This document shows positions 1 to 62,105 of a stretch of 64,000 nt of DNA, one piece after another; position 1 is the first letter of the stretch; every line of letters begins with the position of its first letter. Origin of the DNA: Azolla caroliniana (Eukaryota > Plantae > Polypodiophyta); contig JBHGNT010000010.1 in NCBI GenBank assembly GCA_043228905.1, positions 12,524,001 through 12,588,000 of the forward strand, written 5' to 3'. A program made the position numbers and the translations under genes. The notes beneath the pieces are model-generated. The model had not been told where the DNA came from, did not search any database, and saw only the letters and a list, made by a program, of their open reading frames with translations.

Positions 1-3000
1 TTATTTAAACCAAACCACTAGAATATTACATTAACTAACTCATTTACTAAATGAATTCCATTGTAGTCTAGTTGGTTCAGATCCATTATTTTTACCCGAG
101 ACTCCTGGGTACAGCAATTGGCATGGGAGAAACTAGATACATCATAGATCTGGTGTTAATATCGCATCAATGGAAACCCTTGAAATTATTAAATCTTATA
201 ACCGAGAGTGTGTTAGAATAATCCTCTGTTTCTCGTTGATGCTTGCGCAATATATAAATATTATTTATTACTAATCAATGATTGCAATATTGAAAAGTAT
301 ACAAGATATAATCCATTCTAGTCTAGTTGGTTAGGATACTAGGCTCTCACTCGAGAGACCCGGGTTCAACACCCGACAATGGAAACGACAATATCATATA
401 TTAAAATTCCGACGCATATCATGTTTTAATTGTTTGATAACTCAAAAACTCAAGATTATGTTTGAAGCATTGATGACAAACTTTCCTCGATCAAGATTGC
501 AAAAATACGCATAGATTGTAGAGTAATAGTGAATTCTCGATCAACATTGCAACATATTTCTTTATTTGAAGCAAAGCACTAGAATATTACATTTAGTAAT
601 TCATTTACTAAAGTAATTTCATTTTAGTCTCCTTGGTTGGGATCCTTGTTTTTTACATGAGACTCCCGGGTACAACAATAGGCATTGGAAAACTAGAGTT
701 GTGGTTATGGTTGTGGTTATTTGGTTGTGGTTATTCGTCAACATTGGTACGACAAATTAGTACACCAGCAATTACAGTTTGGATAACTCTATACAATTTC
801 AAACAATACGCATAGAATACAAAATAATGTTCAACTGTCGACAAGCATTGCACCATGTTTCTCTATTTGTAGCGAAGCACTAGAATAGTACATTGACTAA
901 TTTATTTTCTAAATGAAGTCCATTGTAATCATGTTGCTTGGAATCGTTAATTTCTACTCGAAACGTGCAGGGACAAGTACAGGCACACGAAAAACTAAAT
1001 ACATTATATATCATGAGTTAATGTGGCATAGATAAAAACCCGTGAAATTAATAAATCTTAAAAACGAGAGTGTGTTAGAATAATCCTTTGTTTCTTGTTG
1101 ATGCTTGCGGAACATAGAAATAATATTTATTACTAATCAATGATTACAATATTTAAAAGTGCACAGGATGTGATACAATGTAGTGTAGTTAGTTAGGATA
1201 CTCGGCTCTCACCCGAGAAACTCGGGTTTAATTCCCGGAAATGGAAACGACAATATCATATATTAAACTTCCGAGGCATATCATGTGTTAATTGTTTGAT
1301 AACTCAAAAACTCAAGACCTAAAGTAGGCATTACAAAAATGTTTTACACCAGACTCCCGGGTAGAACAATTAGCATAGGAAAAACTCGATACATCATAGA
1401 TCATGAGTTAATATGACATCGATAAAAATCGTTGAAATTATTAAATCTTAAAAACCAGAGTGTGTTAGAATAATCCTCAGTTTCTAGTTGATGCTTGCAC
1501 ACTATATAAATATTGTTTATTACTAATCAATTATTGTAATATTAGAAAGTATATGATCCATTGTAGTCAAGTCGGTTAGGATACTCGGCTTTCACCCGAG
1601 AGACCCGGGTTCAACTCCCCCTGCAATCGAAACGACAACATCATATATTAAATTTCCAACGAGATACTATGTTAACTGTTTGATAACTCAAAAACTCTAG
1701 GCCTAAAATAGATGTTACAATTAACAAAATAATCAATATTATGTTTGAAGGATTGATGACGAACTTTACTTTGATTTTTTTCTCCTAACATGAATTTCTA
1801 AACTTACTCCCATTCTTTGATTAATGGTAAATGTTTCAAATGAAATTGGACAAAACATAATGTTGTTCGAGACAACAAAAAGATGTATATTTGGTTGTGG
1901 TTGTTCGTCAACATTGGTAGGGCAAATTAGTACATCAACAATTATAGTTTGGATAACCCGTATTAATCTCCTGGCAATAGAAAGGACAATATCATATATA
2001 AAATTTTGCGACGCATGTCATGTGTTAACTGTTTGATAACTCAAAAACTCAAGATGTAAAGTAGTTACAATAATGTACAATAAATAAAATGAACTCAAAA
2101 ACTCAAGCTCTAAGGTAGTCATTAGAATAATGTACAATTAACAAAATAATCCAAATTATGTTTGAAGGATTGATAATGAACTTTGATTTTATTTTTTTCT
2201 CCTCACATCAATTTCTAAACTTAATACGAATATTCAATTAATAGTAGAAGTTTCTAATGAAATTTGATAAAACATAATGTGGTTCGCGACAAGGAGAAGC
2301 AATATATTTAGTCGTGGTCATTCCTCAACATTGTTACGACAAATTAGTACACCAACATTGTTTCTTGATTTGAAGTAAAACACTAGAATATTATATTAAC
2401 TAATTCATTTACTAAAAGAATTCCAGTATAGTCTAGTTGGTTCGGATCCTTGTTTTTTACACGAGACTCCCGGGTACAACAATTGGCATGGGAAAAACGA
2501 GATGCATCATTGATCATGAGTTAATATAGCATCGATAAAAACACTGGAAATTATTAAATCTTAAAAATGAGAGTGTGTTACAATAATCCTCAGTTTCATG
2601 TTGCTGCTTGCACAACATATAAATATTATTTATTACTAATCCATGATTGCAATATTAAGAAGTACAGAAGATAGGATCCATTGTAGTCTAGTTCGTTAGG
2701 ATACTCGGCTTTCACCCCAGAGACCCGTGTTCAAATACCGCCAATGAAAACGAGTATATCATATATTAAATTTCCGGCTCATAGCATGTGTTAACGGTTT
2801 GATAACTCAACACCTAAAGTAGATGTTACAATAATGTAGAATTAAGAAAATAATCAATATTATGTTTGAAGGATTGATGACGAACTTTGCTTTGATATTT
2901 TTTTGCTAACATCAATTTCTAAAGTTAATCCCATTATTCAATAAATAGTAGAGGTTTCAATGAAATTTGACAAAACATTCTGTTGTTTGGGACGAGAAGA

Positions 3001-5398
3001 AGCAATATATTCAGTCGTGGTTATTTCTCAACATGGTTACGACAAATTAGTACACTGACAATTATAGTTTGGATGACTTGATAGAATTTCCAAAAATACG
3101 CATAGATTGTATCATAATGGTGAACTCTCGATCAACATTGCACCATATTTCTTTATTTGAAGGAAACCAATAGAATATTACATTAACTAATTCATTTACT
3201 AAATGAATTCCATTGTAGTCTAGTTGGTTCGGAACCTTGTTTTTTACACGAGACTCCCAGGTACAACTATAGGCATTGGCAAAACTAGATACATCATAGA
3301 TGATGACGTAATGTTGCATCGATTAAAACCCTTGAAATTATTAAATCTTAAAAACGAGAGTGTGTTAGAATAATCCTCAGTTTCTCGTTGTTGCTTGCAC
3401 AATATATAAATATTATTTACTACTAATCAATGATTGCAATCTTAAAAACTACACAAGATGTGAACCATTGTAGTCTAGTTGGTTTGGATACTCAGTTCTC
3501 ACACGAGAAACCCGGGTTCAACTACTTGCAATGAAAACAACAATATCATATATTAAATTTTCGACGCATATCATTTGTTAACAGTTTGATAACTGAAAAA
3601 CTCAAGACCTAAAGTAGGTGTTACAATTAATAAAATAATCAATATTATGTTTGAAGTATTGATGATGTACATTCCTTTAATTTTTCTCTCCTAACATCAA
3701 TTTCTAAACTTAATCACATTATTCGATTAATGGTATAGATTTCGAATGAAATTGCACCAAACATTATGTTTTTCGGGAGAACAAGAAGCAGTACATTCAG
3801 TTGTGGCTATTCCTAAACATTGTTACGATAAATTAGTACACCAACAATTATAGTTTTAATAATTTGATAGAATTTCAAAAAATACGCATAGATTGCAAAA
3901 TATTGGTCAACTGTCGACAAGCATTGCACCATGTTTCTTTATTTGTAGCAAAGCACTAGAATAGTACATTAACTAATTCATTTACTCAATGAATTCCATT
4001 GTAATCAAGTTGCCTCGACTCGTTGATTTTTGCCCAAGATGCGTGGGTACAAGCACAAGCATAGGAAAAACTAGATACATCATAGATCATGAGTTAATTT
4101 GGCAACGATAAAAACCCATGAAATTATTAAATCTTAAAAACGAGAGTGTGGTAGAATAATCCTCTGTTTCTCATTGATGCTTGCGCAATATATGAATATT
4201 ATTTATTACTAATCAATGATTGCAATATTAAAAAGTGCACAAGATGTGATCCATTGTAGTCTAGTTGGTTAGAATCCTTGGCTCTCACACGAGAGACCCA
4301 GGTTCAACTCCTGCGAATAGATTGCACCAACAATTATAGTTTGGATAACTTGATACAATTTCAAACAAACGCATAGATTGAAAAATAATGGTCAACTATA
4401 GTAAAGCACTAGAATATTACATTAACTAATTCATTTACTAAATAAATTCCACTATAGTTTAGTTGGTTCAGACTCCCGGGTACAACAATTGGCATTGGAA
4501 AAACTAGATACATCATAGATCATGAGTTAATATCGCATCGATAAAAACCCTTGAAATTATTAAATCTTAAAAACGAGAGTGTGTGTGAATAATCCTCAAT
4601 TTCTCGTTCATACTTGCGCAATATATAAATATTATTTATTACTAATCAATGATTGCAATATTAAAAACTACACTAGATATGATCCATTGTATTCTAGTTG
4701 GTTAGGATACTTGGCTTTCACCCGAGAGACCCGGGTTTAACTCCCGGCAATGGAAACGACAATATCTATATAAAATTTCCAATGTATATCATGTGTTAAT
4801 TGTTTGATAACTCAAAAAGTCAAGCTCTAAAGTAGTTGTTATAATAATGTACAGTTAACAAAATAATCAATATTATGTTTGAAGGATTGATGACGAACTT
4901 TGCTTTGATTTTTTTCTCCTAACATCAATTTCTAAACTTAATCTCATTTTTCAATTAATAGTATAGGTTTCAAATGAAATTTGACAAAACATTATGTTGT
5001 TCGCGAAAAGGAGAAGCAGTATATTTAGTTGTGGTTATTCCTCAACATTATTACGACAAACTAGTACACCAAGAATTATAGTTTTGGATAACTTGATACA
5101 ATTTCTAACAATACGCATAGATTGAAAAATAATAGTCAACTGTCGATGATCATTGCACAATGTTTCTTTCTTTGTAACAAAGGACTAGAATGGTACATTA
5201 GCTAATTCAATTACTAAATGAATTCCATTGTAATCAAGTTGCCTCGCATCCTTGCTGTTTTACTTGACACGCTCGGGTACAAGTAGATATATCATATATC
5301 ATGAGTTAATGTGGCATCGATAAAAACCCTTGCAAGTATTAAATCTTAAAAATGATAGTGTGTTAGAATAATTGTCAGTTTTTCGTTGATGGTTGCGC
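1..5398 (+). repeat. tRNA-Glu-derived tandem satellite, block 1 (monomer ~780-800 bp, many internal deletions)
   Basis: Recurring motifs TCCATTGTAGTCTAGTTGGTTAGGATACTCGGCTCTCACCCGAGAGACCCGGGTTCAACTCCCGGCAATGGAA, GAAATTATTAAATCTTAAAAACGAGAGTGTGTTAGAATAATCC and AACATCAATTTCTAAACTTAATCCCATT in fixed order and one orientation. Confidence 0.95.
4683..4755 (+). pseudogene. tRNA-Glu-like copy, TTC anticodon in a CTC-type body
   Basis: TCCATTG/CAATGGA acceptor stem intact; anticodon loop CTTTCAC; T-loop mutated to TTTAACT; one D-stem change. Confidence 0.7.
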
Positions 5399-6104
5399 TG
5401 TCGTAGTGTATTCCACACACTACGTGAAAACCATAAAATAATATATCCGATTTTAGATACATATAAATAAATAAATAATATATCAAAAGAATTTATCACG
5501 TGCATAGGGCAGGATTCGAACCATGCACCTCCGCGTAGGTAAACCCCAACTTTACCATTGCAATAAATTATCTTTAGTGTTATAAATATAGATTTAATAC
5601 ATATAAGACCTTTATTTACACATACCTTTATTAAAAGGTAAAAATCATGTATTCTTTAGAGTGTGAATATTTTATTTACACGTGCCATTAAAAGTGACTC
5701 ATGCACGTCTAGTGTGCATGAGCTCTATATTTAGGAAATGACAAAGCATCACATGCACATTTAGTGTGCATGGACACTTTAGGTGAAAAAGCATGAAGCC
5801 ATGCTTAGCCTCTTCCATCTTTATATAAGGAGGAGAGAAATATGTATAAGGTTGTTGATTAATATAGAAGAATTGATCAATCTAATATATTCGTGGGATT
5901 CACGAATTTTGCCATCTAAATTACTCTTATAATCTAAATATTGTTTTAAAATAAACTAAACTCGTGGGCTTATCGAGATTACTATCTTACTTCTCTTCCT
6001 ATTATTCATAACTAGCCTTAAGTTGTATTCCTCTTCCTCCTAGTCCAAAACCTCGGCGGTTCCCACCCGACTCACGCAACGATCCGAAGCCGAAGGGCTC
6101 GACA
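5399..6104 (+). repeat. 5' LTR of element 1
   Basis: TGTCG...CGACA inverted termini; near-identical to 11765-12469 (about 12 substitutions and 1 indel by eye). Confidence 0.95.
5512..5565 (-). promoter_or_regulatory. tRNA-like Pol III A-box/B-box module in the element 1 LTR, antisense (also at 11878-11930)
   Basis: Minus strand reads TATTGCAATGG(TAAAG)...GGTTCGAATCC; box starts are 43 nt apart, as in tRNA. Confidence 0.55.
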
Positions 6105-6108
6105 CAGT

Positions 6109-6126
6109 TGGTGAACCCGACGTGAA
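6109..6126 (+). promoter_or_regulatory. Primer binding site complementary to tRNA-Trp
   Basis: TGGTGAACCCGACGTGAA is the reverse complement of the plant cytosolic tRNA-Trp 3' end (TTCACGTCGGGTTCACCA), 4 nt after the LTR. Confidence 0.9.
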
Positions 6127-6142
6127 AACGGGTGGCAAGGAG

Positions 6143-8176
6143 ATGGAAAATCAACCGGAGGCTAGCAACATGATGATGATGTTCGAGCGCATGCTACAAG
6201 AACAACGAAACGGGCAATTCAGTGGAGCGGCTCGTGCAACGAAACGGGCAATTCAACGGGAAAGACGTGTCTCGGTATCTTTGGGACTACAAGGCGGAGA
6301 TGCTACGGTGCGGAATATCGGAAGGACTGCAAGTGACGTCCTTCAACCGGGTGGCGACCGACGGGCTTCAAGCAAGCATCCATGGGCTACGACAGCAAAA
6401 TCCGACATGGGAGGCGTTTGAAGTAGAGCTAAACAGGACGTTCGCCATCGAGGATTCGTCCAAGGCGACGCGAAGGGGATTTGAAGATTGGGTGGAGACG
6501 CCGGACAAGGGATTGAAGGTCGTTGATGTGTTTTCGGCATTCGAAAGCCAGTTCGGGAGGTTGTCCGCGAGAGATCAAGCTATCCTCGTACCGGACAAGG
6601 TGATCATGTTCTTGCGAGCGCCGTGGACATCCAGGACCGGAAAGATCTCGGAGTGCTCTTGGAGGACACGACCACGGAGAGAGGCCTCACTGAAACATGG
6701 GAAAGCGTGCGGGATATCGTCGCGTGATACACGAAGAGGGGGCAATGGCTTGCCAACGAGGAAAAGAGGGTTTCGGAACCGATTCCGAAACCGAGAACCG
6801 GATTGGAAGACCATCAACTGAGGGCTCGAGAGAGTACAACTGAGAAGGGGATTGATGCATCTACGGTGGAGCAACTATTGAAGGAGATGGAGAATCTGAA
6901 GATCGCGATGGTGAAGAAGTCGGATGACCGCCCCACAAGCTCCAAGTATACGGACCGACGGTGCATATGGTGCGATAGCGCCGAACACGATCGGAGGGAT
7001 TGCGACGAGCATAAGGAGGCGCTATGGCGGGATCTCATCTACTACGAGGGAAACCGGATTCATTCGATGGACTCTCGGAAGCCTCTCCGACCGAACTTCC
7101 GGAAAGGCGGCATGAAGAAGGTGCTCGAGGAGGAATTGGCGGCAAGAAGCAACTATGCGACAACCGCGGGAATATGTGTCGGGGAGTCATCGAGAGCAAA
7201 GACGTCTTTTTGGCCGGAAGTTCTAGAAAACACCGAGAAAACCGACTCTAACGAGATCCGAAGCACCGCGGAAGGCGTCCGGGAAGCTACGGGATGGGAG
7301 TGCTCTGTCGACAAGAATAGCGTATACGCCCTATGACAATTGCATAAGGTGTATGTGGACGAGAAACGACGACGCACGGAGGATGCGGCCGGGCCATCAA
7401 AGATACCGGAAAGCTGGAACTCCGGAGGTAAGGGAAAAGAAAAGGCGACTCCGGCATTCAAGCTCGCCTCGGACATAGAACAACAAACCGACTTGAAAAG
7501 AGTGTTCGAGGAAAAAATCTTGGATAGCCGAGTAGATTTCTCGCTTCGGGAGCTACTCGGAATAGCAAAGAAGGAGTTCCACGATCTTCTCGTGGATCTC
7601 GTGAAGCGAAAAAGACAAAGTACGGAGGAAAATGCTCCAAGGGTGAATGCGAACACCGTTTTAATGATCGACACCGAAGTGGAGGACGAAATTCCGAACT
7701 CCCACTATACAAGGCCACATTGGGCACGCGCGACTACGGAGACTCCGGTCCGAATCGGCAACATCAAAGAACCCGTGCTAGCATTGATTGATCACGGATC
7801 GGAGATCAACTTGATGTCCAAGGAGTTCTACCGGAAGGGGAAGTGGCCTATTAACACCAACCATGGATGGAAGATTCGGGCGGCCACCAAAGCAACGGAA
7901 GATCTATTTGCGGCTTGTCCGGATGTGACGGTGAAGATCGGGGATGTCGAGATCGACCAAAATTTCTTCGTGCAAGATGAGGTTTCACATTCCGTCATCC
8001 TCGGCCAACCCTTTATTACGGCATCACGGATGGAGACGAAGGTGCTCGATAGCGGTGCGGCTTTTGCGCGAATTCGGAGCCAAAACGGTGGAAAATCCGT
8101 CCAATTCCTAACGGTGCCGGCAAATCACGAAAGGAACAAGAGGGAACTCTTGTCCCAAGTGAGAATGGATTTTTAA
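6143..8176 (+). pseudogene. gag: gag-protease ORF of element 1 (disrupted)
   Basis: ORF pieces 6122/6222/6803/7340; zinc knuckle CIWCDSAEHDRRDC (CX2CX4HX4C); aspartic protease LIDHGSEIN...ILGQPF; frameshifts near 6220 and in 6620-6800; in-frame TGA at 7334. Confidence 0.88.
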
Positions 8177-8230
8177 AGCGGACTGTTGCAGAGTGGGGAA
8201 GTGATAGTCCGAGAAGCCCTGATACCCCAC
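8167..8230 (+). promoter_or_regulatory. Predicted -1 ribosomal frameshift signal (G_GAT_TTT plus pseudoknot)
   Basis: Slippery heptamer directly before the gag-PR stop; -1 frame open downstream; stem 8179-8189/8201-8211; loop GTGGGG pairs with CCCCAC at 8225-8230. Confidence 0.75.
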
Positions 8231-11200
8231 ACAGGAAGAAAACTCTCGGAGCAAAACATGTACGAATCGCTCTGGATGGGGCATCTACGTACACGACCGT
8301 AACCGGAGGATTGAAGAAAGGATACCGACAAGTGGAGGATAAGTTGCGGTCGGCATCAATAATAAAAGAAGATGAAGAAATCGTGGGGATAGTCGAAGAA
8401 GTGTTCTATGGGAGCACACTACAACGACTTGAAGAGCTTGCAGAAGATAAAAGCCAAGGGAACCGGGTAGTCCCGGTGGAATCGGTCGAGATGTACGAGA
8501 TCATTTAGAAAATGGAGCCAGATACGCTCCGCAAAGAAGGAGCAATGGTAAGTACGAAATACAAGACCGTGGAGAAGAAGGTGAAACCGGCTGCGGGACC
8601 ACTACCCGCCGATAGCGAACAAAAGAGGAAAGAAGTCTCGGGAGATCCGACACTTCGGAAGTCCGTGGATATCGGACATGCCTTCACGGATGAGACCCGG
8701 AAGAAACTTCGGATCGGTGGAGGTGGGTTCCTATTACAAAAAGAAGAAGAACGGTTTCGCGAGATGTTGGAGCAATATGGCAAAGCGTTTCCATTTACAT
8801 CAAGGGAGATAGGGTGCGTCGATCCGAGAATAGTGGAGCCGATGGTGATCTTCACGATTGACCATGTACCGTGGAACCTGAAGCCGATTCCGGTGCCACG
8901 AGCGCATATTCCGAAAGTCATTGACTTGCTCAAGGAGAAGGTGGCGATGGGGATTCTAGAGCCATCAACTGCTCCGTACTCAAATCGATGGTTTACGGTT
9001 CCGAAGAAGAATGGGTCACTCCGATTTATCCAAGACTTGCAACCGGTGAATAAGGTCACGATCCGGAACTCGGGAGTCAGTCCGATAGTGGATGAATTTG
9101 CGGAAGCTTTTGCCGGTTGTGCGATATACTCCATCGGAGACCTATACTCGGGTATGACCAATTCCAACTAGCCGTGGAGAGCCGAGACATCACAACCATG
9201 CGAACACCGATAGGATTAGTCCGAATGTGCACACTACCACAAGGAGCGACAAACTCGGTTGCTCATATGATGAACGCGATGAACAAGGTGCTTCGAGACT
9301 GCATTCCGGAGATAACGATGCCGTTCCTCAATGACATTCCGATGAAAGGATGCGCGGTAGAAGAAAAAGATGAAACTATGGATGATCGGGGATGCCGAAA
9401 GTTCGTGGTCGACCATATTCATGATTGCGAGAAAGTGTTGCGAAAGCTAGAAGATGTGCACCTAACACTTTCCGGGGAGAAATCGGCATTTGGGCAAGAA
9501 GAAATATTGGTGGTCGGACATCTATGTGGGCCCTACGGTCGAAGACCGTCACCAACAAAGATCGATGCGATTCAAGCTATGGAGGAAGTATGCGAGTCAA
9601 CATCCGAAGTCCGAAGGTTTCTCAGTGCATGTGCATTCTATCACATATGGATTCCGCACTATGCACATATAGCGGATCCGCTCTACCACTTGTTGCGGAA
9701 AGGTAAGAAATTCGAATGGAAACCGGAACACACCAACGCCATGAAGAAATTGAAGAAGACACTTCGGAGGGCGGAAGCACTTAAGAAGCCGAGCTATGAC
9801 CGACCAATCATAGTAACGGTTGATACAAGTCCAACCGGTATCGGGTGGGTCATCAATCAAGCCGACTCGGATGGTTCGCGGTATCCGATCCGATTCGGAG
9901 CAAAGGTTCTCAACGAAAGGCAACGTGGATATGCGCAAGTCAAAAGAGAACTGTGGGGAGTCATGTCAGCGATAAAATCGGATCGGGATTATTTGATCGG
10001 AGCCGAAGTGGTGATCGAGACGGATTGTCTTCCGATACTCGGGATGATGCGGTGTTGTACGATACCGGATGTAGCTATGCTAAGGTGGGTTGCATATGTC
10101 AAGTTGCTTAATCCGGAGGTTCGACACATCTCGGGGAAGGACAACGCGGTAGCGGATATGTTATCAAGGGCTCGGTTCGGGCACGACATAACCGAATCGG
10201 ATAATGAAGAAGTTTCCGAAGACTACTTCGCGTCGGAGCACATATGCCGAGTAAACGTAATCCGGGAATTCCGGGAAGAAGAATACGAGGGAGAAAGCTT
10301 GATGATCGGGAAGATGTTACAAGAGGCCGAGGATTCAACAAACGATAAAGGAAGAAGAGCCGAGATCCGAAGGAAGAAGAGACAAGTCCAAAAGTTCTTC
10401 TTGGAAAACGGATTAATATGGAGGGCGCCGAAAAGACCGGATGGTATACCACTTCGAGTAGTCGGGACAAAAGAGCAACGAAACCGGATAATGTCCGAGT
10501 TTCACGAATCCGATTGGGCTGGACACCGAGGAACATGGGCAACATTTGTGAAGATCAAGCAAAAATATTGGTGGAAGAAAATGTACAAAGATGTCGCGGA
10601 GTTCACTGAAAGCTGCGAGAAATGTCAAGTCTACTCCAGGGTTCGACATCGAGATGAGTTACATCCGACATTCTCACCGACAATCAACTTCAAGTGGATG
10701 GTTGACATAGTGGCCATGCCGACCGGGATCGGACAAAAGAAATACTTGGTATTAGCTCGGGAAGATCTCACGAATCAAGTAGAAGGTCGAGCGCTTCAGA
10801 GAAAAACGTGTTCCGCGGTATGCCAATTTCTTTTGGAGGAAGTATTTTGCAAGTACGGGTGCGTAGGACAAGTGATTGCGGACCGGGGAGAACTCGACTC
10901 GGACAAAGCTAGGGGATTCTTCGCTAAACACGGAGTTCGGTTATTGCTGACAACGGCATACAATCCGGAGGCCAACGGGAAAATCGAACTAGGACATAGT
11001 CCGATCGTGAAAGCACTTGCGAAGGCATGCGATGGAAAGGTGAAGGACTGGCCGCAGATGCTTCCGTATGCACTATGGGCGGATCGGACGACGCATAGTT
11101 CCATAACCGGTTACATGCCGGCAGAACTCATGACCGGACAAGCACCGGTAATGCCGACGGAAACCGTGATCGCAACATGGACAGTGCTACCGTGGAAGGA

Positions 11201-15057: not shown

Positions 15058-15068
15058 CTATCTCCCCC

Positions 15069-19682: not shown

Positions 19683-19756
19683 AGTAGAGGGACAAGGGTA
19701 GGAGGATGAGGGAGAACGACAAGTAGGCTGGAGGAAAGAAAAAAATTGGTTCCATC

Positions 19757-49675: not shown

Positions 49676-52600
49676 ACTCAAAACGTGCAGGTACAAGTAC
49701 AGGCATAGGAAAAACTAGATACATTATATGTCATGAGTTAATGTGGCATCGATAAAAACCCGTGAAATTATTAAATCTTAAAAACGTGAGTGTGTTAGAA
49801 TAATGCTCTGTCTCTTGTTGAGGCTTGCACAATATATAAATATTATTTATTACTAATCAATGATTGCAATATTAAAACGTGTACAAGATGTGATCCATTG
49901 AAGTCTATTTGGTTAGAATACTCGGTTCCTTGCTTTTTACCTGAGACGCCCGGATAAAACTAGATATATCAGATATCATGAGTTAATGTGGCATCGAGAA
50001 AAACCCTTGAAATTATTAAATCTTAAGCACGAGAGTGTGGTAGAATAATCCTTAGTTTTTCGTTGATGCTTGTGCAAAATATAAATATTATTTATTTCTA
50101 ATCAATGATTGCAATATCAAAAAGCACACAAAATGTGATCCATTGTAGTCTAGTTGGTTAGGATACTCGGGTCTCACCCGAGAGACCCAGATTCAACTCC
50201 CGGCAATGGAAACGACAATGTCATATATTAAATTTTCGACGCATATCATGCGTTATCTGTTTGATAACTCAAAAACTCAAGACCTAAAGTAAATGTTACA
50301 ATAATGTACAATTAACCAAATAATCAATATTATGTTTAAAGGATTGATGACGAACTTTACTTTGATATTTCTCTCCGAACATCAATTTCTAAACTTAATC
50401 CCATTATTCGATTAAGGGTAGAGGTTTCAAATGAAATTGGACAAAACATTATGTTATTCGAGACAACAAGAAGCAGTATATTTGGTTATGGTTATTCGTG
50501 AACATTGGTACGACAAATTAGTACAACAACAATTATATATCATGAGTTCATGTGGCATCGATAAAAACCCGTGAAATTATTAAATCTTAAAAACGAGAGT
50601 GTGTTGATGCTTGCGCAATCTATAAATATTGTTTATTACTAATCAATGATTGTAATATTAAAAAGTGTACAAGATGTGATCCATTGAAGTCTAGTTGGTT
50701 AGAATACTCGGTTCCTTGCTTTTTACCTGAGACGCCCGGGTACAACTAGATATATCAGATATCATGAGTTAATGTGGCATCGAGAAAAACCCTTGAAATT
50801 ATTCAATCGTAAAAACGAAAGTGTGGTAGAATAGTCCTCTGTTTCTCGTTGATGCTTGCGCAAAATATTTGTAATCAATGATAACAATATTAAAAAGCAC
50901 ACAAAATGTGATCCATTGTAGTCTAGTTGGTTAGGATACTCGGCTCTCACCCGAGAGTTCCGGGTTCAACTACCGGCAATGGAAACAACAATGGCATATA
51001 TTAGATTTCCGACATAGATAATGCGTTATCTGTTTGATAACTCCAAAAGTCAAGACCTAAAGTAAATGTTACAATAATGTACAATTAACAAAATAATCAA
51101 TATTATGTTTGAACAATTGATGACGAACTTTACTTTGATATTTCTCTGCTAACATCAATTTCTAAACTTAATCCCATTATTTGATTAATGGTAGAGGTTT
51201 CAAATGAAATTGGACAAAACATTATGTTGTTCGGGATAACAAGAAGCACTATACTTGGTTGTGGTTATTCATCAACATTGGTACGAGAAATTAGTACACC
51301 AACAATTATAGTTTGCATAACTCGAGACAATTTCGAACAATAGGCATAGATTGCAGAATAATGGTCAACTGTCGATGAGCATTGTACCGTGTTTCTTTAT
51401 TTGTAACAAAGGACTAGAATGGTACATTAACTAATTCATTTACTAAAGGAATTCCATAGTAATCAAATTGCTTTGGATCCTTGCTTTTTACCTGAGACGC
51501 CCTAAAGTAGTTCTTACAATAATGTACAATTAACAAAATAATTAATATTATGTTTGAAGGATTGACAAAGAACTTTACTTTAATTGTTTTCTCCTAACAT
51601 CAATTTCTAAATTTAATCCCATTATTCGATTAATGGTAGAGGTTTCGAATGAAATTGGACCAAACATTATGTTGTTCGGGACAACAAGAAGCAGTATATA
51701 TAGTTGTGGTTATTCCTCAACATTGTTACAATTAATTAGTACACCAAAGATTATAGTTTGTTGTGGATAACTCGATACAACTTCAAACAATACGCATAGA
51801 TTGTGGAATAATGGTCAACTGTTGATGACTATTGTACGATGTTTCTTTATTTGTAACAAAGGACTAGAATGGTACATTAACTAAATTCCATTGTAATTAA
51901 ATTGCCTCGGATCCTTGCGTTTTACCTGTGACGCCAGGGTAAAAGTAGATATGTCATATACCATGAGTTAATGTGACATTTATAAAAACCCTTGAAATTT
52001 GTAAATCTTAAAAACGAGAGTGTGTTAGAATAATCCTCAGTTTTTTGTTGATGCTTCCACAAAATATAAATAGTATTTATTTCTCATCAACGATTGTAAT
52101 ATTACAAAGCACACAAAATGTGATCCATTGTACTTTAGTTGGTTAGGATACTCAGCTCTCACCCGAGAGATCCGGGTTCAACTCCCCGAAATGGAAACGA
52201 CAATATCATATATTAAATTTTCGACGCATATCATGTGTTAACTGTTTGAGAACTCAATAACTCAAGACCTAAAGTAGGTGTTACAATAATGTACAGTTAA
52301 AAAAATAATCAATATTATGTTTGAAGGATTGATAAAGAACTTTACTTTGATTTTTTCCTCCGAACATCAATTTCTAAACTTAATCCCATTATTCGATTAA
52401 TGGTAAAGGTTTCGAATGAAACTGGACCAAACATTATGTTGTTCGGGACAACAAGAAGTAGTATATTTAGTTATGGTTATTCCTCAACATTGTTACGATA
52501 AATTAGTAGACCAACAATTATAGTTTGGATAACTTGATACAATTCCAAGCAATACGCATAGATTGTAAAATAATGGTCAATTGTTGACAAGCATTGCACC

Positions 52601-54089
52601 ATGTTTCTTTCTTTATACCAAAGCACCAGAATAGTACATTAACCAATTCATTTATTCAATCAATTCCATTGAAATCAAGTTGCCTTGAATCGTTGATTTT
52701 TACCCAAGCCGCGCGGTTACAAGCACAGGCATAGGAAAAACTAGATACATCATAGATGATGAGTTAATTTGGCATCGATAAAAACCAGTGAAATTATTTA
52801 ATCTTAAAATTGATGGTGTGTTAGAATAATCCTCTGTTTCTTGTTGATGCTTGCGCAATATGTAAATATTATTTATTACTAATCTATGATTGCAATATTA
52901 AAAACTATACAATATGTGATCCATTGAAGTCTAGTTGGTTAGAATACTCGGCTCTCACCTGATAGACCCGGGTTCAACTCCTGGCAATGAAAACGACAAT
53001 ATCATATATTAAATTTCCGACGCATATCTTGTTTTAACTGTTTGATTATTCAAAAACTCAAGACGTAAAGTAGATGTTACAATAATGTACAATTAATAAA
53101 ATAATCAATATTATGTTTGAAGAATTGATGACGAACTTTCCTTTCATTTTTTTCTAGTAACATCAATTTGTAAACTTAATCCCATTATTCAATAATAGTA
53201 GAGGTTTCAAATGAAATTTTATAAAATATTATGTTGTTCGGGAGAAGAAGAAGCAATATATTTAGTCGTTGTTATTTCTCAACATGGTTACGACAAATTA
53301 GTACACTGACAATTATAGTTTGCATACCTTGATAGAATTTCCAAAGATACGCATAGATTGTGGAATAATGGTGAACTCTCGATCAACATTGCACCATATT
53401 TCTTTATTTGAAGTAAAGTAGTAGAATATAACATTAACTAATTCATTTACTAAATAAATTCCATTGTAGTCTAGTTGGTTCGGATCCTTGTTTTTTTACG
53501 CACAGATTGCAAAATAATGGTCAACTATCGCGAGACCCGGGTTCATCTCCAACCAATAGAAAAGACAATATCATATATCATATTTTGCAACGCATGTCAA
53601 GTGTTAAGTGTTCGATAACTCAAAAACTGAAGACCTAACATTATTTTTGTTCAGGATAACAAGATGCAATATATTTAGTTCTGGTTATTCCACAAATTTG
53701 TTACGCCAAATTAGTACACGAAAAATATAGTCTGGATAACTCGATGGAATTTCAAACAATACGCATAGATTGCAAAATAATGATCAACTATCGATGAGTA
53801 TTGCACCATGTTTCTTTATTTCTAACAAAGGACTAAAATGGTACATTAACTAAGCCATTTACTAAATGAATACCATTGTAATCTAGTTGCCTCGGATCGT
53901 TGCTTTTTACCTGAGCACCTGGGTACAAGTAGATATATCCTATATCATGAGTGAATATGGCATTGATAAAAACCCTTGAAATTATTAAATCTTAAGAACG
54001 AGAGTGTGTTAGAATAATCGTCTGTTTTTTGTTGATGCTTGCGCAATATATAAATATTATTTATTTCTAATCAATGATAGCAAGATTAA
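49676..54089 (+). repeat. tRNA-Glu-derived satellite, block 4
   Basis: Same monomer; near-intact-type copies at ~50139, 50912, 52124, 52920. Confidence 0.95.
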
Positions 54090-54523
54090 TGTTAACTCTT
54101 CGGGCCGGACAATGGCCTAACACAAGGTGTCTACGGGAGACACTTCACCAAAGGGTGTTACGGCTACCGGATTAGACTTCAACGCCTAATCCGATTTAGT
54201 TAAGTTACTTATTAGGATCGTATTTCATAACACGCGTAAGATATAACAATTAAGACAGAACGGCAATTAACACAGAGATATAACAACGCTTAAGCTTTCA
54301 TTAATTAACCGCTAACTATTACATTGTATCCGGGCCTTTAAATAGGTTTCCGGTCTGTATTACAAAACGGTGCCATCCGCACCTGTTCGGGATCGGTCCG
54401 GATCCGAAACGGCATACCGATTCCGGTCCGTCCGTCCACACTCATAACTTAATTACAACCACATTCCTACTAATTAATTAGTTCTCCGTTTCCCACTCTG
54501 GACTCCTTTGCCGGCCGGTAACA
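54090..54523. mobile_element. Solo LTR of a third, unrelated family (434 bp)
   Basis: TGTTA...TAACA termini, 5-bp TSD ATTAA (54085-54089 and 54524-54528), more GC-rich than flanks, no ORF; empty paralogous site at ~25333. Confidence 0.88.
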
Positions 54524-57500
54524 ATTAAAAAGCACACAAGATGTGATCCACGATAGTCTACTTGGTTAGGATACTCGGCCCTCACCTGAGAGACCGGGGT
54601 TCAACTCCTGGCAATGGAAACGACAATATCATATATTAAATTTCGACGCATATCAGGTGTTAACTGTTTGATAACTCAAAAACTCAAGTCCTAAAGTAGG
54701 TGTTACAATAATGTACAATTAACAAAACAATCAACTTTATGTTTCAACGATTGATGACGAGCTTTACTTTGATTTTCTTCTCCTAACATCAACTTCTAAA
54801 CTTAATTCCACTATTCGATTAATGGTAGAGGTTTCGAAAGAAAATGGACAAAATATTATGTTGTTCGGGACAACAAGAAGAAGAAAATATTATCTGGTTA
54901 TTCCTCAACATTATTACGATAAATTAGTACACCAACAATTATAGTTTAGATAACGTGATACAATTTCAAACAATACGCATAGATTGCAAAATAATGTTCA
55001 ACCGTCAACAAGCTTTGCACCATTTTTTTTTATTTGGAGCATGGCACTAGAATAGTACATTAACTAACTCATTTACTAAATGAATTCCTATGTAATCGAG
55101 ATGCCTGGAATTGTTGATTTTTACCCGAGACACGTGGGTACAAGTACAACCATAGGAAAAACTAGATACATGATAGCTCATGAGTTAGTTTGGCATCGAT
55201 AAAAACCAGTGAATTTATTAAATCTTAAAAATGAGAGTGTGTTAGAATAACCCTCTGTTTCTTGTTGATGCTTGCACAATATATAAATATTATTTATCAC
55301 TAATCAATGATTGCAATATTAAAAAGTCTACAAGATGTGATCCATGGAAGCCTCGTTGGTTAGAATCCTCGGCTCTCATACGAGAGACTCGGGTTTAACT
55401 CCCGGCAATGAAAACGACAATATCATATATTAAATTTCCGAGGCATATCTTGTGTTAACTGTTTGAAAACTCAAAAACTCAAGACCTAAAGTAGATGTTA
55501 CAATCATGTACAATTAATAAAATAACCAATATTATCTTTCAAGGATTGATGACGAATATTGCTTTCCTTTTTTTCTCCTAACATCAATTTCTAAACTTAA
55601 TCCCATTATTCAATTAATAGTAGAGGTTTCAAATGAAATTTGACAAAATGTTATGTTGTTCGGGACAAGAAGAAGCAATATATTTAGTCATTTCTCAACA
55701 TGGTTATGACAAATTAGTACACCAACAATTATAGTTTGGATAACTTGATAGAATTTCCAAAAATACGCATGGATTGTAGAATAATGGTGAACTCTCGATC
55801 AACATTGCACCATATTTCTTTATTTGAAGCAAAGCACTAGAATATTACATTAACTAATTCATTTACTAAATGAATTCCATTGTAGTCTAGTTGATTCGGA
55901 TCCATGATTTTTACACGAGACTCCCGGGTACAGTAATTGGCATGGGAAAAACTAGATACATCATAGATCATGAGTTAATATCGCATCGATGGAAACCCTT
56001 GAAATTATTAAATCTTAAAACCGAGACTGTGTTAGAGTAATCCTCTATTTCTCGTTGATGCTTGCACAATATATAAATATTATTTATTACTAATCAATGA
56101 TTGCAATATTGAAAAGTACACAAGATATAATCCATTGTAGTCTTGTTGGTTAGGATACTAGGCACTCACCTGAGAGACCCGGGTTCAACCATAGCAATAT
56201 TATTGATTACTAATCAATCATGGCAATATGAATAAGTACACTAGATATGATCCATTGTAGTCCAGTTGGTTAGGATACTTGGCTCTCACCTTAGAGACCC
56301 GGGTTCAACTCCTAGCAATGGAAACGACAATATCATATATTAAAATTCCGATGCATATCATGTGTTAACTGTTTGATAACTCAAAAACTCAAGACCTAAA
56401 GTAGGTATCAAACAAAAACTCAAGACCTAAAGTAGGTATCAAACAAAAACTCAGGACCTAAAGTAGGTGTTACAATAATGTACAGTTAACAAAATATTCA
56501 ATATTATGTTTGGAGGATTGATAAAGAATTTTACTTTGGTTTTTTTCTCCTAACATCAATTTCTAAACTTAATCCCATTATTCAATTAATACTAGAGGTT
56601 TCAAATGAAATTTGACAAAACATTATGTTGTTCAGGACAAGAAGAAGTAGTATATTTAGTTGTGGTTATTCCTCAACATTGTTACGACAAATTAGTACAC
56701 CAAAATTTATAGTTTGGATAACTTGTTACAATTTCTAACATACGTATAGATTAAAAAATAATAGTCAACTGTTGATGATCATTGCACAATGTTTCTTTCT
56801 TTATAACAAAGGACTAGAATGGTACATTAACTAATTCATTTACTAAATGAATTGCATTGTAATCAAGTTGCCTCGGATCCTTGCATTTTTACCTGACACG
56901 CTCAGGTACAAGTAGACATATCATATATCATGAGTTAAATCTTAAAAACCCTTGAAATTATTAAATCTTAAAAATGACAGTGTGTTAGAATAATTCTCAG
57001 CTTTCGTTGATGCTTGCGCAATATATAAATATTATTTATTTCGAATCAATGATTGCAATATTAAAAAGCACACAAGATGTGATCCATTGTAGTCTAGTTG
57101 GTTAGAATACTCAGCTCTCACCCGAGAGACCCGGGTTCCACTCCCGGTAATGGAAAAGAAAATATCATATATCAAATTTTGCGACACATGTCATGTGTTA
57201 ACTGTTTGATAACTCAAAAACTCAAGCCCTAAAGTAGTTGTTAGAATAATGTACAATTAACAAAATAATCAATATTATGTTTGAAGGATTGAGAAAGAAC
57301 TTTACATTCAGGTTTTTCTCATCAATGGGATTAATCAAAACATCAATTTCTAAACTTAATCCCATTATTCAATTAATAGTAGAGGTTTCAAATGAAATTT
57401 GACAAAACATTAGGTTGCTCGGGACAAGAACAAGCAGTAAATTTAGTCGTGGCTATTTCTCAATATTGTTACGACAAATTGGTACACCGACAATTACAGT

Positions 57501-60500
57501 TTGGATAACTTGATAGAATTTCCAAAAATACGCATAGATTGTAGAGTAATGGTGAACCCTTGATTAACTTTGCACCATAGTTCTTTATTTACTAAATGAA
57601 TTCTATTCTAGACTAGTTGGTTCAGATCCTTGTTTTTGACTCGAGGCTTCTGGGTACAACAATAGGCTTTGGAAAAATTAGATACATCATAGATCATGAG
57701 GTAATGTCATATTGATAAGAACCATTCAAATTATTAAATCTTAAAAACGAGAGTGTGTTAGAATAATCCTCAGTTTCTCGTTGATACTTGCGCAATATAT
57801 AAATATTACTTATTACTATTCTATGATTGCAATATATCTATACATAAGATAGGATCCATTGTAGTCTAGTTAGTTAGGATACTCGGCTTTCACCTGAGAG
57901 ACCCGTGTTCAACTACCCGCAATGGAAACAACAATATCATATATTCAATTTCCGACGCATATCATGTGTTAACTGTTTGATAACTCAAGACCTAAAGTAG
58001 GTTTTACATTAATGTACAATATTATGTTTGACGGATCGATGACGAACTTTACTTTAATTTTATTCTCGTAACATCAATTTGTAAACTTAATCCCATTATT
58101 TGATTAATGGTATAGGTTTCGAATGAAATTGAACCAAACATTATGTTGTTCGGGACAACAAGAAGTAGTATGCTTAGTTGTGATTATTCGTCAACATTGT
58201 TACGATAAATTAGTACACCAACAATTATAGTTTGGATACCTTAATACAATTTCAAACAATAGGCATAGATTGCAGAATAATGCTCAACTGGCGACAAGCA
58301 TTGCACCATGTTTCTCTATTTGTAGCAAAGCACTAGAATAGTAAATTAACTAATTTATTTACTAAATGACTTCTATTGTAATCAAGTTGCCTCGAATCGT
58401 TGATTCTTACTTGAAACGCGATAGGAAAAACTAGATACATTATATATCATGAGTTAATGTGGCATCGATAAAAAGTTGTGAAGTTATTAGATCTTAAAAA
58501 TAAGAGTGTGTTAGAACAATCCTAAGTTTTCATTGATGCTTAAGCAATATATAAATATTATTGATTAGCAATCGGTGATTACAATATTTAAAAGTGTAGA
58601 AGATGTGATCCATTGTAGTCTAGTTGGTTAGAATACTCGGCTCTCACCTGAGAGACCCGGGTTCAACTCTTGGATATAGAAAAGACAATATCATATATAA
58701 AATTTTGCAACGCATGTCATGTCGTAACTGTTTGATAACTCCAAAACTCAAGACGTAAAGTAGTTACAATAATTTACAATTAACAAAGTAATCAATATTA
58801 TGTTTGAAGGATTGATAAAGAACTTTGCTTTGGTTTTTTTCTCCTAACATCAATTTCTAAACTTAATCCCATTATTCAATTAATAGTAGAGGTTTCAAAT
58901 GAAATTTGACAAAATATTATGTTGTACATGACAAGAAGAATCAGTATATTTAGTCGTGGTTAGTCCTCAACATTGTTATGACAAATTAGTACACCAACAA
59001 TTATAGTTTGGATAACTTGATACAATTTCCAAAAATACGCATAGATTGTCGAATAAAGATGAATTCTCGATGAGCATTGCACCATGTTTCTTTATTTGAA
59101 GTAAAGTAGTAGAATATTACATTAACTAATTCATTTACTAAATGAATTCCATTGTAGTCTAGTTCGTTCGGATCCTTGTTTGTTACACTAGACTCCCATC
59201 AGATATCATGAGTTAATGTGGCATCAACAAAAACCCTTGAAATTATTAAATCTTAAAAACGAGAGTGTGGTAGAATAATCCTCAGTTTTTCGTTGATGCT
59301 TGCGCAAAATATAAATATTATTTATTTCTAATCAATGATTGCAATATTAAAAAGCACATAAAATGTTATCCATTCATGTCTAGTTGGTTAGGATACTCGG
59401 CTCTCACCCAAGAGACCCGGGTTCAACTCCCGGCAATGGAAACCACAATGTCATATATTAAATTTCCAACGCATATAATGCGTTATCTGTTTGATAACTT
59501 AAAAACTCAAGACCTAAAGTAAATGTTACAATAATGTACAATTAACCAAATAATCAATATTATGTTTGAAGGATTGATGACGAGCTTTACTTTGATATTT
59601 CTCTCCTAACATCAATTTCTAAACGTAATCCCATTATTCGATTAATGGTGGAGGTTTCAAATGAAATTGGACAAAACATTATGTTGTTCAAGACAACAAG
59701 AAGCAGTATATTTGGATGTAGTTATTCATTAACATTGGTACGAAATTAGTACACCAACAATTATAGTTTGGATAACTCTATACAATTTCAAACAATACGC
59801 ATCGATTGTAGAATAATGGTCAACTATCGATGACTGTTGCACCATGTTTCTTTATTTGTAACAAAGTACTAGAAATGTAAATTAACTAATTCATTTACTA
59901 AATGAATTCCATTGTTATCAAATTGCCTCAGATCTTTGCTTTTTACCTGAGACGCCCGGGTAGAATTAGATATGTCAGGTATTTTATGAGTTAATGTGGA
60001 ATTTATAAAAACCCTTGAAATTATTAAATCTTAAAAATGAGAGTGTGCTAGAATAAACCTCAGTTTTTTGTTGATGCTTGCCCAAAATATAAATATTATT
60101 TATTTCTAATCCATGATTGCAAGATTAAAGAGCACACAAAATGTGATCCATTGTAGTCTAGTTGGTTAGGATACTCGGCTCTCACCCGAGAGACGTGGGA
60201 TATACTCCCGACAATGGAAACAACACTATCATAAATTAAATTTCCGATGCATATCATCTGTTAACTGTTTGATAACTGATAAACTCAAGACCTGAAGTAG
60301 GTGTTACAATAATGTACAATTAACAAAATAATTAATATTATGTTTGAACGATTGATGATGTAATTTACTTTAATTTTTTTCTCCTAACATCAATTTCTAA
60401 ACATAATCCAATTATTTGATTAATGTTAGAGGTTTCGAATGAAATTGGACTAGACATTATGTTGTTCGGCACAACAAGAAGCAGTATGTTTAGTTGGTGT

Positions 60501-61660
60501 TATTCCTCAACATTGTTACGATAAGTTAGTACACCAACAATTATAGTTTGGATACCTTAATACAATTTTAAACAATAGGCATAGATTGCAGAATAATGCT
60601 CAACTGTCCACAAGCATTGCAGCATGTTTCTTTCTTTATACCAAAGCACTAGAATAGTACATTAACCAATTCATTTACTAAATGAATTCCATTGTAATCA
60701 AGTTCCCTAGAATCGTTAATTCTTACTCGAAACGCGATCGGAAAAACTAGATACAATATATATCATGAGTTAATACTCGGCTCTCACCCGAGAGACCCGA
60801 GTTCAACTCTCGGGAATAGAAAGGACAATATCATATATAAATTTTTGCGATGGATGTCATGTCTTAACTGTTTGATAACTGAAAAACTCAAGACGTAAAG
60901 TAGTTACAATAATGTACAATTAACAAAATAATCAATATTATGTTTGAAGGATTAATAAAGAACTTTGCTTTGATTTTTTACTCCTCACATCAATTTCTAA
61001 ACTTAATCCCATTATTCAATTAAAAGTAGAGGTTTCAAATGAAATTTGACAAAATACTATGTTGTACGCGACAAGAAGAAGCAGTATATTTAGTCGTGGT
61101 TATTCCTCAACATTGTTACGACAAATTAGTACACCAACAATTATACTTTGGATAACTTGATACAATTTCCAAAAATATGCATAGATTCTCGAATAATGAT
61201 GAATTCCCGGAGAGCATTGCACCATGTTTCTTTATTTGAAGTAAAGCACTAGAATATTACATTCACTAACTCATTTACTAAATGAATTCCATTGTAGTCT
61301 AGTTGGTTCAGATCCTTGTTTTTTACACGAGACTCCCGGGTAAAACAACTCACATGGGAAAAACTAGATACATCATAGATCATGAGTTAATATCGCATCG
61401 ATAAAAACCCTTGAAATTATTAAATCTTTAAAACGAGAGTGTGTCAGTATAATCCTCAGTTTCTCGTGGATGCTTAAGCCATATATAAATATTATTGATT
61501 ACTAATTAATGATTACAATATTAAAATGTACACTAGATATGATCCATTGTAGTCTAGTTGGTTAGGATACTTAGGTCTCTCACAGCTCTCACCCGAGAGA
61601 CCTGTGGTTAACTCCCGTCAATGGAAACGACAATATCATATCTAAATTTCCGACGCATAT
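54524..61660 (+). repeat. tRNA-Glu-derived satellite, block 5
   Basis: Same monomer; copies at ~54547, 55341, 56251, 57083, 57855, 58609, 59369, 60147, 61543. Confidence 0.95.
56382..56467 (+). repeat. Local 31-bp tandem repeat (~2.8 copies)
   Basis: CAAAAACTCAAGACCTAAAGTAGGTATCAAA starting at 56382, 56413 and 56444. Confidence 0.85.
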
Positions 61661-62103: not shown

Positions 62104-62105
62104 GT

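What the first reader, a model, noticed from the sequence alone, without database searches (positions are those of the whole stretch)
1..61660. Very long satellite array built on a tRNA-Glu gene
Seen: outside the five insertions, the whole window (~46 kb) is one head-to-tail repeat with about 60 copies of a 73-nt unit whose consensus folds as a complete tRNA-Glu(CTC): acceptor TCCATTG/CAATGGA, anticodon arm CTCGG/CCGAG, T arm CCGGG/CCCGG, with A and B boxes. I found no copy identical to the consensus. Known: the sequence is close to plant cytosolic tRNA-Glu(CTC); tandem tRNA arrays exist in some eukaryotes (e.g. Entamoeba), but plant satellites are usually not tRNA-based. Inference: a tRNA gene has become a major heterochromatic satellite (centromeric, subtelomeric or sex-chromosomal) with dense potential TFIIIC/Pol III sites, which could act in chromatin organisation or as a source of tRNA-like small RNAs.
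Basis: partly seen in the sequence, partly recalled or inferred. Interest (0 to 1): 0.85.

Follow-up and report, generated by a model that had tools for sequence, protein, structure and literature searches.

The report
Decaying satellite built from tRNA genes
A 46-kb stretch, likely from a seedless land plant, holds about 58 head-to-tail copies of a 0.8-kb unit built around a glutamate tRNA gene; almost every copy has mutated out of tRNA shape, so it is likely a silenced relic satellite and not a working tRNA cluster, a kind of repeat described in amphibians that I did not find described for plants.

Summary
The array is real, but its unit is 796 bp, not 73 nt. It spans 46.2 kb, about 58 units, with five retroelement insertions. 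Each unit has a near-intact tRNA-Glu(CTC) (copy A) and a ruined copy B 255 bp upstream. The A consensus differs at 3 of 73 bases from the commonest dispersed plant gene. The copies decay without regard to structure: 1 of 54 keeps all pairs and invariant bases, there is no covariation, and the consensus has no terminator before +155. C>T is raised at CG and CHG. Units are 84% alike, and homogenisation likely stopped before the LTR insertions. Best reading: a methylated relic satellite amplified from a tRNA gene. Runs of two other organisms hold the same rare tRNA variant in many contigs with unrelated flanks, so the tRNA is the shared core of several repeat families. tRNA-derived tandem repeats are known in amphibians, one from tRNA-Glu. 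Host: seedless plant; Azolla is an unproven candidate, and its genome paper's unread supplement may note this. Centromeric or Pol III function is untested. The scan had not noted this on other DNA.

The parts
1..5398 (+). Satellite array, segment 1 (runs off the left end of the window)
12470..14633 (+). Satellite array, segment 2
20181..47282 (+). Satellite array, segment 3 (longest, 27 kb)
49676..54089 (+). Satellite array, segment 4 (left edge approximate)
54524..61660 (+). Satellite array, segment 5; its right end is set by an LTR element, so the true end of the array is not seen
43336..44109 (+). Example of one whole monomer (consensus 796 bp: 466-bp spacer, copy B, 182-bp spacer, copy A)
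39523..39595 (+). Copy A with the best tRNA score (63.8 bits); the only one of 54 with all 21 pairs and all 11 invariant bases; first T4 run 155 nt downstream
26983..27055 (+). Copy A closest to the consensus (1 difference, breaks pair 7-66)
44784..44856 (+). Copy A with 2 differences; used to lay runs of other organisms
43793..43865 (+). Example of degenerate copy B (subtype B1: A box kept, T run in the anticodon arm, B box lost)
5399..12469 (+). Full-length Ty3/Gypsy insertion E1; 706-bp LTRs 1.7% apart, 4-bp target duplication; named relatives in Riccia and Adiantum
14634..20180 (-). Full-length Ty3/Gypsy insertion E2 in the A box of a B copy; LTRs 1.9% apart, 5-bp target duplication
47283..49675 (-). 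5'-truncated LINE (zf-RVT end, A tail) inserted in the T run of a B copy; right edge approximate
54090..54523 (.). Solo LTR (TG...CA, 5-bp target duplication), 23 bp upstream of copy A at 54547
61661..64000 (+). Ty3/Gypsy element of the same family as E2 (92% identical, opposite strand), cut by the window end

Best explanation
This is a tandem satellite with a 796-bp unit that carries one near-complete and one ruined copy of a tRNA-Glu(CTC) gene, and its copies are decaying without regard to tRNA structure, so it is likely a methylated, silent relic of a tRNA-gene amplification in a seedless land plant and not a working tRNA cluster. Likely course: (1) a founder tRNA-Glu variant (A4-U69, C59) with its upstream TATA-like and CAA elements was duplicated locally [inferred]. 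(2) One copy (B) lost its B box and anticodon arm [shown]; the other (A) stayed intact in the lineage that went on to amplify, through selection on the founder or correction from other copies [inferred]. (3) The two-copy unit amplified, mostly in one burst, by DNA-level recombination that left a patchwork of 0.4-1.2-kb tracts [pattern shown, mechanism inferred]. (4) CG and CHG methylation silenced it and drives C>T decay [spectrum shown, methylation inferred]. (5) Homogenisation stopped and retroelements inserted [order inferred from divergences]. Any Pol III transcript from A would run about 155 nt past the tRNA end [predicted].
For: Unit and copy number. Origin: the consensus is 3 of 73 from the commonest dispersed gene, and 35 of 117 genes lie at that distance. 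Structure-blind decay: 83.5% of cells paired against 83.3% in shuffles, and pairs changed on both sides 6 against 6.1; broken pairs per substitution 0.50 observed against 0.42-0.43 in a neutral simulation, invariant bases hit per substitution 0.129 against 0.129. Widespread subfamily changes break stems: pair 12-24 is unpaired in 24 of 54 copies and pair 7-66 in 21 of 54. The anticodon is changed in 11 of 54. Terminator: T4 within 30 nt in 13 of 54 copies against 114 of 117 dispersed genes; the first T run in the consensus is at +155. Methylation signature: C>T changes per site 3.08 at CG, 3.0 at CHG, 1.52 at CHH, against T>C 0.41 (37 copies with both flanks, of 56). Burst: terminal branches are 1.885 of 2.325 total tree length. 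No local homogenisation: 35 monomers average 84.2% identity with no relation to distance (rho 0.06, p 0.17); 0 of 433 tiles have a partner at 99% or more and 16 of 433 have their best partner within 2 kb. LTR pairs are 1.7% and 1.9% apart; the four close array segment pairs measured are 3.9-8.2% apart. Host: the named relatives of E1 are all Riccia or Adiantum.
Against: Copy A changes somewhat less than the spacer once base context is matched: mean divergence 0.091 against 0.121 expected (P 0.003, but sites are not independent) and terminal changes 123 against 162. Singletons (54 against 49) and internal-branch changes (53 against 54) show no deficit, so the tests disagree; a 0-25% constraint is not excluded. 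A has 1 internal deletion against 47 in 650 spacer columns (biased by how fragments were collected). A has 4 of 73 deep polymorphisms against 18 of 73 in B (p 0.002), and B consensuses are 17 and 24 bases from A, so A was preserved at some stage. The same tRNA variant lies in other organisms with unrelated flanks. CpG is not depleted overall (observed/expected 0.94). No methylation, expression or location data were available, and only one window of the array was seen.
Confidence: 0.68

Rival explanations
1. The satellite works as a chromatin organiser. The A and B boxes of copy A would bind TFIIIC/Pol III and mark a centromere, pericentromere or boundary, or would promote the unit's own amplification; the tRNA box is then the conserved core of several satellite families, and this window is an old outer layer.
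For: Runs of organisms C and D cover only the tRNA part (bins 44772/44781-44861) with 290 and 584 contigs and shared but unrelated flanks; no A>G change and no C>G at base 59 is listed at 2% or more, so they carry the same rare variant. A run of organism A shows a second flank family. A is kept while B drifted. 16 of 54 copies keep both boxes, 36 of 54 an upstream CAA and 32 of 54 a TATA-like element. There is a mild deficit of changes in A.
Against: Box positions are hit at the neutral rate; C56 and T8 are changed in whole subfamilies. No deficit on internal branches. Plant tRNA genes are reported as excluded from centromeres (PMC13437025, passages). The array is not homogenised. Tandem layout in organisms C and D is not shown.
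Confidence: 0.14
2. The unit comes from a tRNA-derived SINE or retroposed read-through transcript that later formed tandem arrays, as proposed for the newt PolIII/TAN repeat; the high-copy forms in other organisms would be dispersed SINE-like copies.
For: No terminator close behind A. A LINE lies in the same window. Several flank families share one tRNA head. Precedent: title and passages on PolIII/TAN, and SINE-derived satellites of reptiles (PMC10702118).
Against: No A tail of 7 or more on the tRNA strand, no target duplications between units, no PPT+TG. The tRNA is whole (1-73) and keeps upstream TATA-like and CAA elements, which a retroposed copy would not normally carry (established knowledge). 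Families differ in the upstream flank too, unlike SINE copies, which share the 3' body only.
Confidence: 0.1
3. It is a reserve tRNA gene cluster like the Arabidopsis Ser-Tyr-Tyr and Pro clusters, silenced by methylation but reactivated in some cells to supply tRNA-Glu or tRNA fragments.
For: 30 ARAGORN calls. The consensus is a sound tRNA, and 3 of 54 copies have at most one broken pair with all invariant bases. Silenced and reactivated plant clusters exist (PMC7544208 abstract; PMC13437025 passages).
Against: Arabidopsis clustered genes keep short poly(T) terminators (PMC7544208 section 14); here the consensus has none before +155. 51 of 54 copies have at least one broken pair, mean 3.5. No covariation.
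Confidence: 0.07
4. The array is an assembly artefact or a chance resemblance to tRNA.
For: None found.
Against: All 54 copies are distinct. Rfam E-values reach 1.6e-11. Contigs of runs from two studies cover all 30 bins of an 8.9-kb piece. The insertions have proper target duplications.
Confidence: 0.01

Closest known systems
Amphibian tRNA-derived tandem repeats: PolIII/TAN of the newt Cynops pyrrhogaster (from tRNA-Glu, about 360-nt unit), OAX/satellite I of Xenopus, Rana/polIII (about 250 nt) (PMC10702118 and PMC12054243, passages; primary papers not read)
   Same: Head-to-tail repeat whose unit holds a tRNA-derived Pol III promoter plus unrelated spacer; PolIII/TAN derives from the same isotype.
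   Different: Here the host is a seedless land plant, the unit is 796 bp with two tRNA copies of unequal preservation, the A consensus is a whole tRNA 3 bases from a plant gene, and transcription is not shown (PolIII/TAN is reported as transcribable in vitro).
Plant tandem tRNA gene clusters: Arabidopsis Ser-Tyr-Tyr (76 genes, 39 kb) and Pro clusters, maize Ile, barley Gln, Ceratodon clusters (PMC13437025, PMC7544208, PMC12652284, PMC11700998, PMC2886086)
   Same: Tandem amplification of a tRNA gene with its flanks; similar size; likely methylated and silent.
   Different: Those genes are intact and keep terminators. These copies average 6.9 substitutions and 3.5 broken pairs, and the consensus lacks a close terminator. 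No land-plant Glu homocluster stands in the rows of the cluster table I saw (part 1 of 23).
The tRNA excess of the fern Azolla filiculoides: 7,848 curated genes and over 10,000 tRNA-like sequences (PMC13578239 section 6 and appendix; bioRxiv 10.1101/2021.12.21.473619 main text)
   Same: Seedless plant with very many tRNA-like sequences; arrays like this one would inflate such counts (30-40 calls in 64 kb here).
   Different: That the window is from Azolla is not shown. The papers ascribe the excess to genome duplication and repeats, not to a tRNA-Glu satellite, and PMC13437025 (section 6) says the isotype ranking is conserved even there. I recall, unverified, that the supplement of PMC6786969 notes many tRNA-Glu genes in Azolla; that file could not be read.
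SINE-derived satellites of squamates (sSat; PMC10702118, passages)
   Same: Satellite formed from a tRNA-related Pol III element.
   Different: Those arise from parts of known SINEs; no SINE body, tail or target duplication is found here.

Membership tests
tRNA-derived tandem satellite (PolIII/TAN, OAX, Rana/polIII type) | Long head-to-tail array of one unit | tested here: met
   About 58 unit equivalents of 796 bp on one strand
tRNA-derived tandem satellite (PolIII/TAN, OAX, Rana/polIII type) | Unit holds a tRNA-derived segment with A and B boxes | tested here: met
   Rfam RF00005 40 hits; boxes in the consensus, both intact in 16 of 54 copies
tRNA-derived tandem satellite (PolIII/TAN, OAX, Rana/polIII type) | High copy number in the genome | tested here: inconclusive
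   Thousands of contigs lie on the stretch, but summed contig depth is no copy number; no genome held
tRNA-derived tandem satellite (PolIII/TAN, OAX, Rana/polIII type) | Transcribed or transcribable by Pol III | not testable with these tools
   No RNA holder listed
Functional plant tRNA gene cluster (SYY, Pro, Ile type) | At least 5 tRNA genes within 5 kb | tested here: met
   For example 5 ARAGORN calls in 56251-59441
Functional plant tRNA gene cluster (SYY, Pro, Ile type) | Copies keep the cloverleaf and invariant bases | tested here: not met
   1 of 54 fully intact; no covariation
Functional plant tRNA gene cluster (SYY, Pro, Ile type) | Poly(T) terminator close behind the gene | tested here: not met
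   13 of 54 copies against 114 of 117 dispersed genes; consensus +155
tRNA-derived SINE | 3' A-rich tail and target-site duplications, dispersed copies | tested here: not met
   No A run of 7 or more on the tRNA strand; constant spacers. Dispersal elsewhere in the genome not testable
Tandem-array TRIM / LTR-derived repeat | PBS behind and PPT before a TG...CA terminal repeat | tested here: not met
   No PPT+TG on either strand; the CA..TGG hits lie in the tRNA acceptor stems or spacer, read by eye as no PBS
Active centromeric satellite | Recent homogenisation, neighbours more alike than distant units, higher-order repeats | tested here: not met
   Identity unrelated to distance; no tile at 99% or more
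Active centromeric satellite | CENH3 binding and centromeric location | not testable with these tools
   No genome or ChIP data

The most novel reading that the evidence does not exclude
In this plant lineage one tRNA-Glu variant is the conserved core of a whole library of satellites: related species keep the same 73-base Pol III module while the spacers turn over beyond recognition, because TFIIIC/Pol III binding drives array amplification or organises heterochromatin. Such satellites, not extra translation capacity, would explain extreme fern tRNA counts.
Probability: 0.2. Interest if true: 0.78.

Novelty: new variant of a known kind. Interest (0 to 1): 0.45.

Why it matters
It shows a plant tRNA gene turning into bulk satellite DNA, a route described mainly for amphibians. 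In practice, 30-40 'tRNA genes' are called in these 64 kb although 1 of 54 copies is intact, so arrays like this can inflate tRNA counts in seedless plants. If the host is Azolla, it would bear directly on the published idea that its more than 7,500 tRNA genes support fast growth. The shared tRNA core with changing flanks across organisms gives a testable case for whether a Pol III promoter can act as the conserved element of satellite evolution.

Tried and rejected
No genome is held for the window, so extent, location and genome-wide copy number are open. A 73-bp period was rejected: TRF finds none. A three-subunit origin of the monomer (three units of about 250 bp) was tested: the spacer before B and the spacer before A align weakly (z 3.0 in one of five pairings; best profile E 0.014, while reversed controls of other pairings reach 0.09-0.17), and no third tRNA remnant was found; inconclusive. 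L084 flanks do not match the array spacers (z 0.9). The BLAST of two monomers against 120 metagenome loci hit only the tRNA-like part in the rows shown. TRIM, MITE and SINE hallmarks were not found. Comparing A and spacers between B subtypes was set aside because linkage decays along the unit. One search had the tRNA window shifted by one column; corrected. The structure drawn was mis-registered and not used. No RNA holder was listed, and two runs guessed to be RNA laid 0 contigs: no evidence either way. Summed contig depths (up to 2.2e5 against about 10-40 for most of the longer contigs listed) were not turned into copy numbers, since short overlapping contigs inflate them. Protein searches with E2 and the LINE named only fungi and a toad at about 51-62%, or nothing. 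Three older papers were not held.
Full report
1. Observation. Self-BLAST shows 46,032 bases of repeat and five non-repeat blocks. An HMM from 28 near-full monomers has 796 columns and tiles 45,966 bases in 107 fragments, all on the + strand, equal to 57.6 units. The unit is therefore 796 bp, not 73 nt; TRF reports no 73-bp period. A single-copy search finds 100 tRNA-like places, of two kinds. Copy A is near-intact: 56 fragments hold at least 66 of 73 columns. Copy B is degenerate and lies 255 bp upstream of A: 33 near-full and 28 partial. ARAGORN tRNA-Glu and Rfam 40 tRNAs.

2. Origin. The commonest form (33 genes) differs from the A consensus at 3 of 73 positions: 4, 59 and 69. The 4-69 pair is kept as A-U. 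Only 1 of 117 (L084) has A4 and U69, and none has C59. Both changes at 4 and 69 fall in CpG sites, so they may be methylation-driven changes that happen to pair. B consensuses differ from A at 17 (B1, 15 copies) and 24 (B2, 13 copies) of 73 bases; B1 keeps the A box but has a T run in the anticodon arm and no B box.

3. State of the A copies. I used the 54 copies without indels; copies with insertions, deletions or truncations were left out. They differ from the consensus by 6.9 bases on average and none equals it. Three have no broken pair, one (39523) also keeps all 11 invariant bases, and 11 have a changed anticodon. Pairing is no better than in shuffles: 83.5% against 83.3%, and 6 against 6.1 pairs changed on both sides. 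A simulation with the spacer's substitution spectrum gives 0.42-0.43 broken pairs per substitution; observed is 0.50. Invariant bases are hit at 0.129 per substitution in both. A T4 run lies within 30 nt behind 13 of 54 copies, against 114 of 117 dispersed genes; the consensus has its first run at +155. Both boxes are intact in 16 of 54, an upstream CAA in 36 and a TATA-like element in 32.

4. Results against pure neutrality. Matched for base context, A diverges less than the spacer: 0.091 against 0.121 expected. On a tree of the 37 copies with both flanks, terminal changes are 123 against 162 expected, but internal changes 53 against 54; singletons are 54 against 49. The tests disagree, sites are not independent, and recombination can inflate spacer counts. 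A deficit of 0-25% is not excluded. A has 4 deep polymorphisms against 18 in B (p 0.002) but does not differ from the spacer at G/C sites (4 of 39 against 31 of 187, p 0.47). I read this as preservation of A before the last amplification, with little or no constraint since.

5. History. C>T changes per site are 3.08 at CG, 3.0 at CHG and 1.52 at CHH, against 0.41 for T>C, as expected of plant CG and CHG methylation (established knowledge); overall CpG is not depleted (0.94). The tree is star-like (81% terminal length). The 35 longest monomers are 79-95% identical (mean 84%), unrelated to distance. Best partners form tracts of 0.4-1.2 kb, 2-52 kb apart, at 89-96%; none of 433 tiles has a partner at 99%. 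The two complete Gypsy elements have LTR pairs 1.7% and 1.9% apart, less than the 3.9-8.2% of four close array segment pairs, so homogenisation likely stopped before they inserted.

6. Host and relatives. No genome is held. The named relatives of element E1 among the 120 listed are all Riccia or Adiantum, which points to a seedless land plant; an unchecked scan note on this genome says 'likely from a fern'. Ten runs from five studies hold part of the array. Runs X1 (organism A) and X4 (organism B) cover all 30 bins of an 8.9-kb piece with 3,533 and 2,417 contigs. Runs X11 and X12 (organisms C and D) lie only on the tRNA, with 290 and 584 contigs. Their loose ends are shared by up to 35 and 55 contigs and are unlike the window's flanks; no change back to G4 or G59 is listed at 2% or more (ends of matches may be clipped). 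Run X5 (organism A) shows a second flank pair in 15-16 contigs. L084 matches the X11 flanks by eye (17 of 19 bases upstream, 16 of 17 downstream) and has a 59-bp direct repeat 247 bp apart. So one rare tRNA-Glu variant sits in at least four multi-copy families across three organisms. Whether those families are tandem is not shown.

7. Mechanism. Shown: unit anatomy, decay pattern, missing terminator, patchwork, insertions. Inferred: methylation and silence, burst amplification by DNA recombination, and earlier preservation of A by selection or conversion. That tRNA genes pause replication forks and favour recombination is recalled, not tested. Best reading: relic satellite (0.68). Rivals: promoter-dependent organiser (0.14), SINE origin (0.10), reserve tRNA cluster (0.07), artefact (0.01).

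8. What is known. Passages of PMC10702118 and PMC12054243 list tRNA-related tandem repeats of amphibians, among them PolIII/TAN from tRNA-Glu; I did not read the primary papers. Plant clusters: PMC13437025 (abstract, passages, sections 6 and 10, part 1 of 23 of Table S3, supplement searches), PMC7544208 (abstract, section 14), PMC12652284 and PMC11700998 (passages), PMC2886086 (abstract). They describe clusters of annotated tRNA genes of Pro, Ser/Tyr, Ile, Gln and others; I saw no land-plant Glu homocluster. Azolla has 7,848 curated genes (PMC13578239 section 6 and appendix) and over 10,000 tRNA-like sequences (PlantRNA 2.0 preprint, main text). PMC6786969 (passages and nine supplements searched) says nothing on nuclear tRNA genes in what I could read; its supplementary discussion was unreadable and, by my recall, mentions many tRNA-Glu genes in Azolla. 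A 1986 claim that small plant satellites derive from tRNA genes is recalled only. Ten paper searches found no description of a tRNA-Glu satellite in a plant; the library lacks most subscription papers.

9. Verdict. Real, with a corrected unit; a new plant variant of tRNA-derived satellites; likely non-functional in this window. Interest 0.45. The cross-organism conservation of the tRNA core is the part worth following.

Noticed in passing
window 54090-54523 and 54547: A solo LTR inserted 23 bp upstream of a tRNA copy, close to where Ty3-like elements target Pol III start sites (recalled). All five insertions lie in or within about 70 bp of an A or B copy; such zones make up about half of the unit, so this is weak (n = 5, noticed after the fact).
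   Followed up: partly
runs X11, X12 on window 44784-44856: Two other organisms carry the same A4-U69/C59 tRNA-Glu in hundreds of contigs with their own shared flanks: further high-copy tRNA-Glu repeat families.
   Followed up: partly
runs X1, X5, loose ends at window 38971, 44784 and 44858: Organism A has a second flank family around the same tRNA variant; it does not occur among the flanks of the 100 hits in this window.
   Followed up: partly
L084 284-356 (-): A metagenome contig with an A4-U69 tRNA-Glu (66.6 bits), no close T run and a 59-bp direct repeat 247 bp apart; its flanks resemble those of run X11.
   Followed up: partly
window 22299-22400, 35278-35365, 53460-53560, 49894-49960, 50680-50747: Chimeras of A and B halves inside single tRNA-like copies, pointing to recombination between the two copies of the unit.
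   Followed up: no
window 2677, 4683, 20425, 21663, 25356, 29971, 57855 (and 1557): Copies whose anticodon has changed from CTC to TTC by one C>T; annotation tools count them as tRNA-Glu(TTC) genes.
   Followed up: yes
window 14634-20180 and 61661-64000: Two members of one Gypsy family (92% identical) in opposite orientations; no tRNA-type primer site was obvious behind the 5' LTR by eye, as in self-priming Tcn1-like elements (recalled).
   Followed up: no
window 7337-8173: Element E1 encodes a DUF4100 match before its protease; a 97% identical pol fragment (P0183) lies in a metagenome assembly.
   Followed up: no
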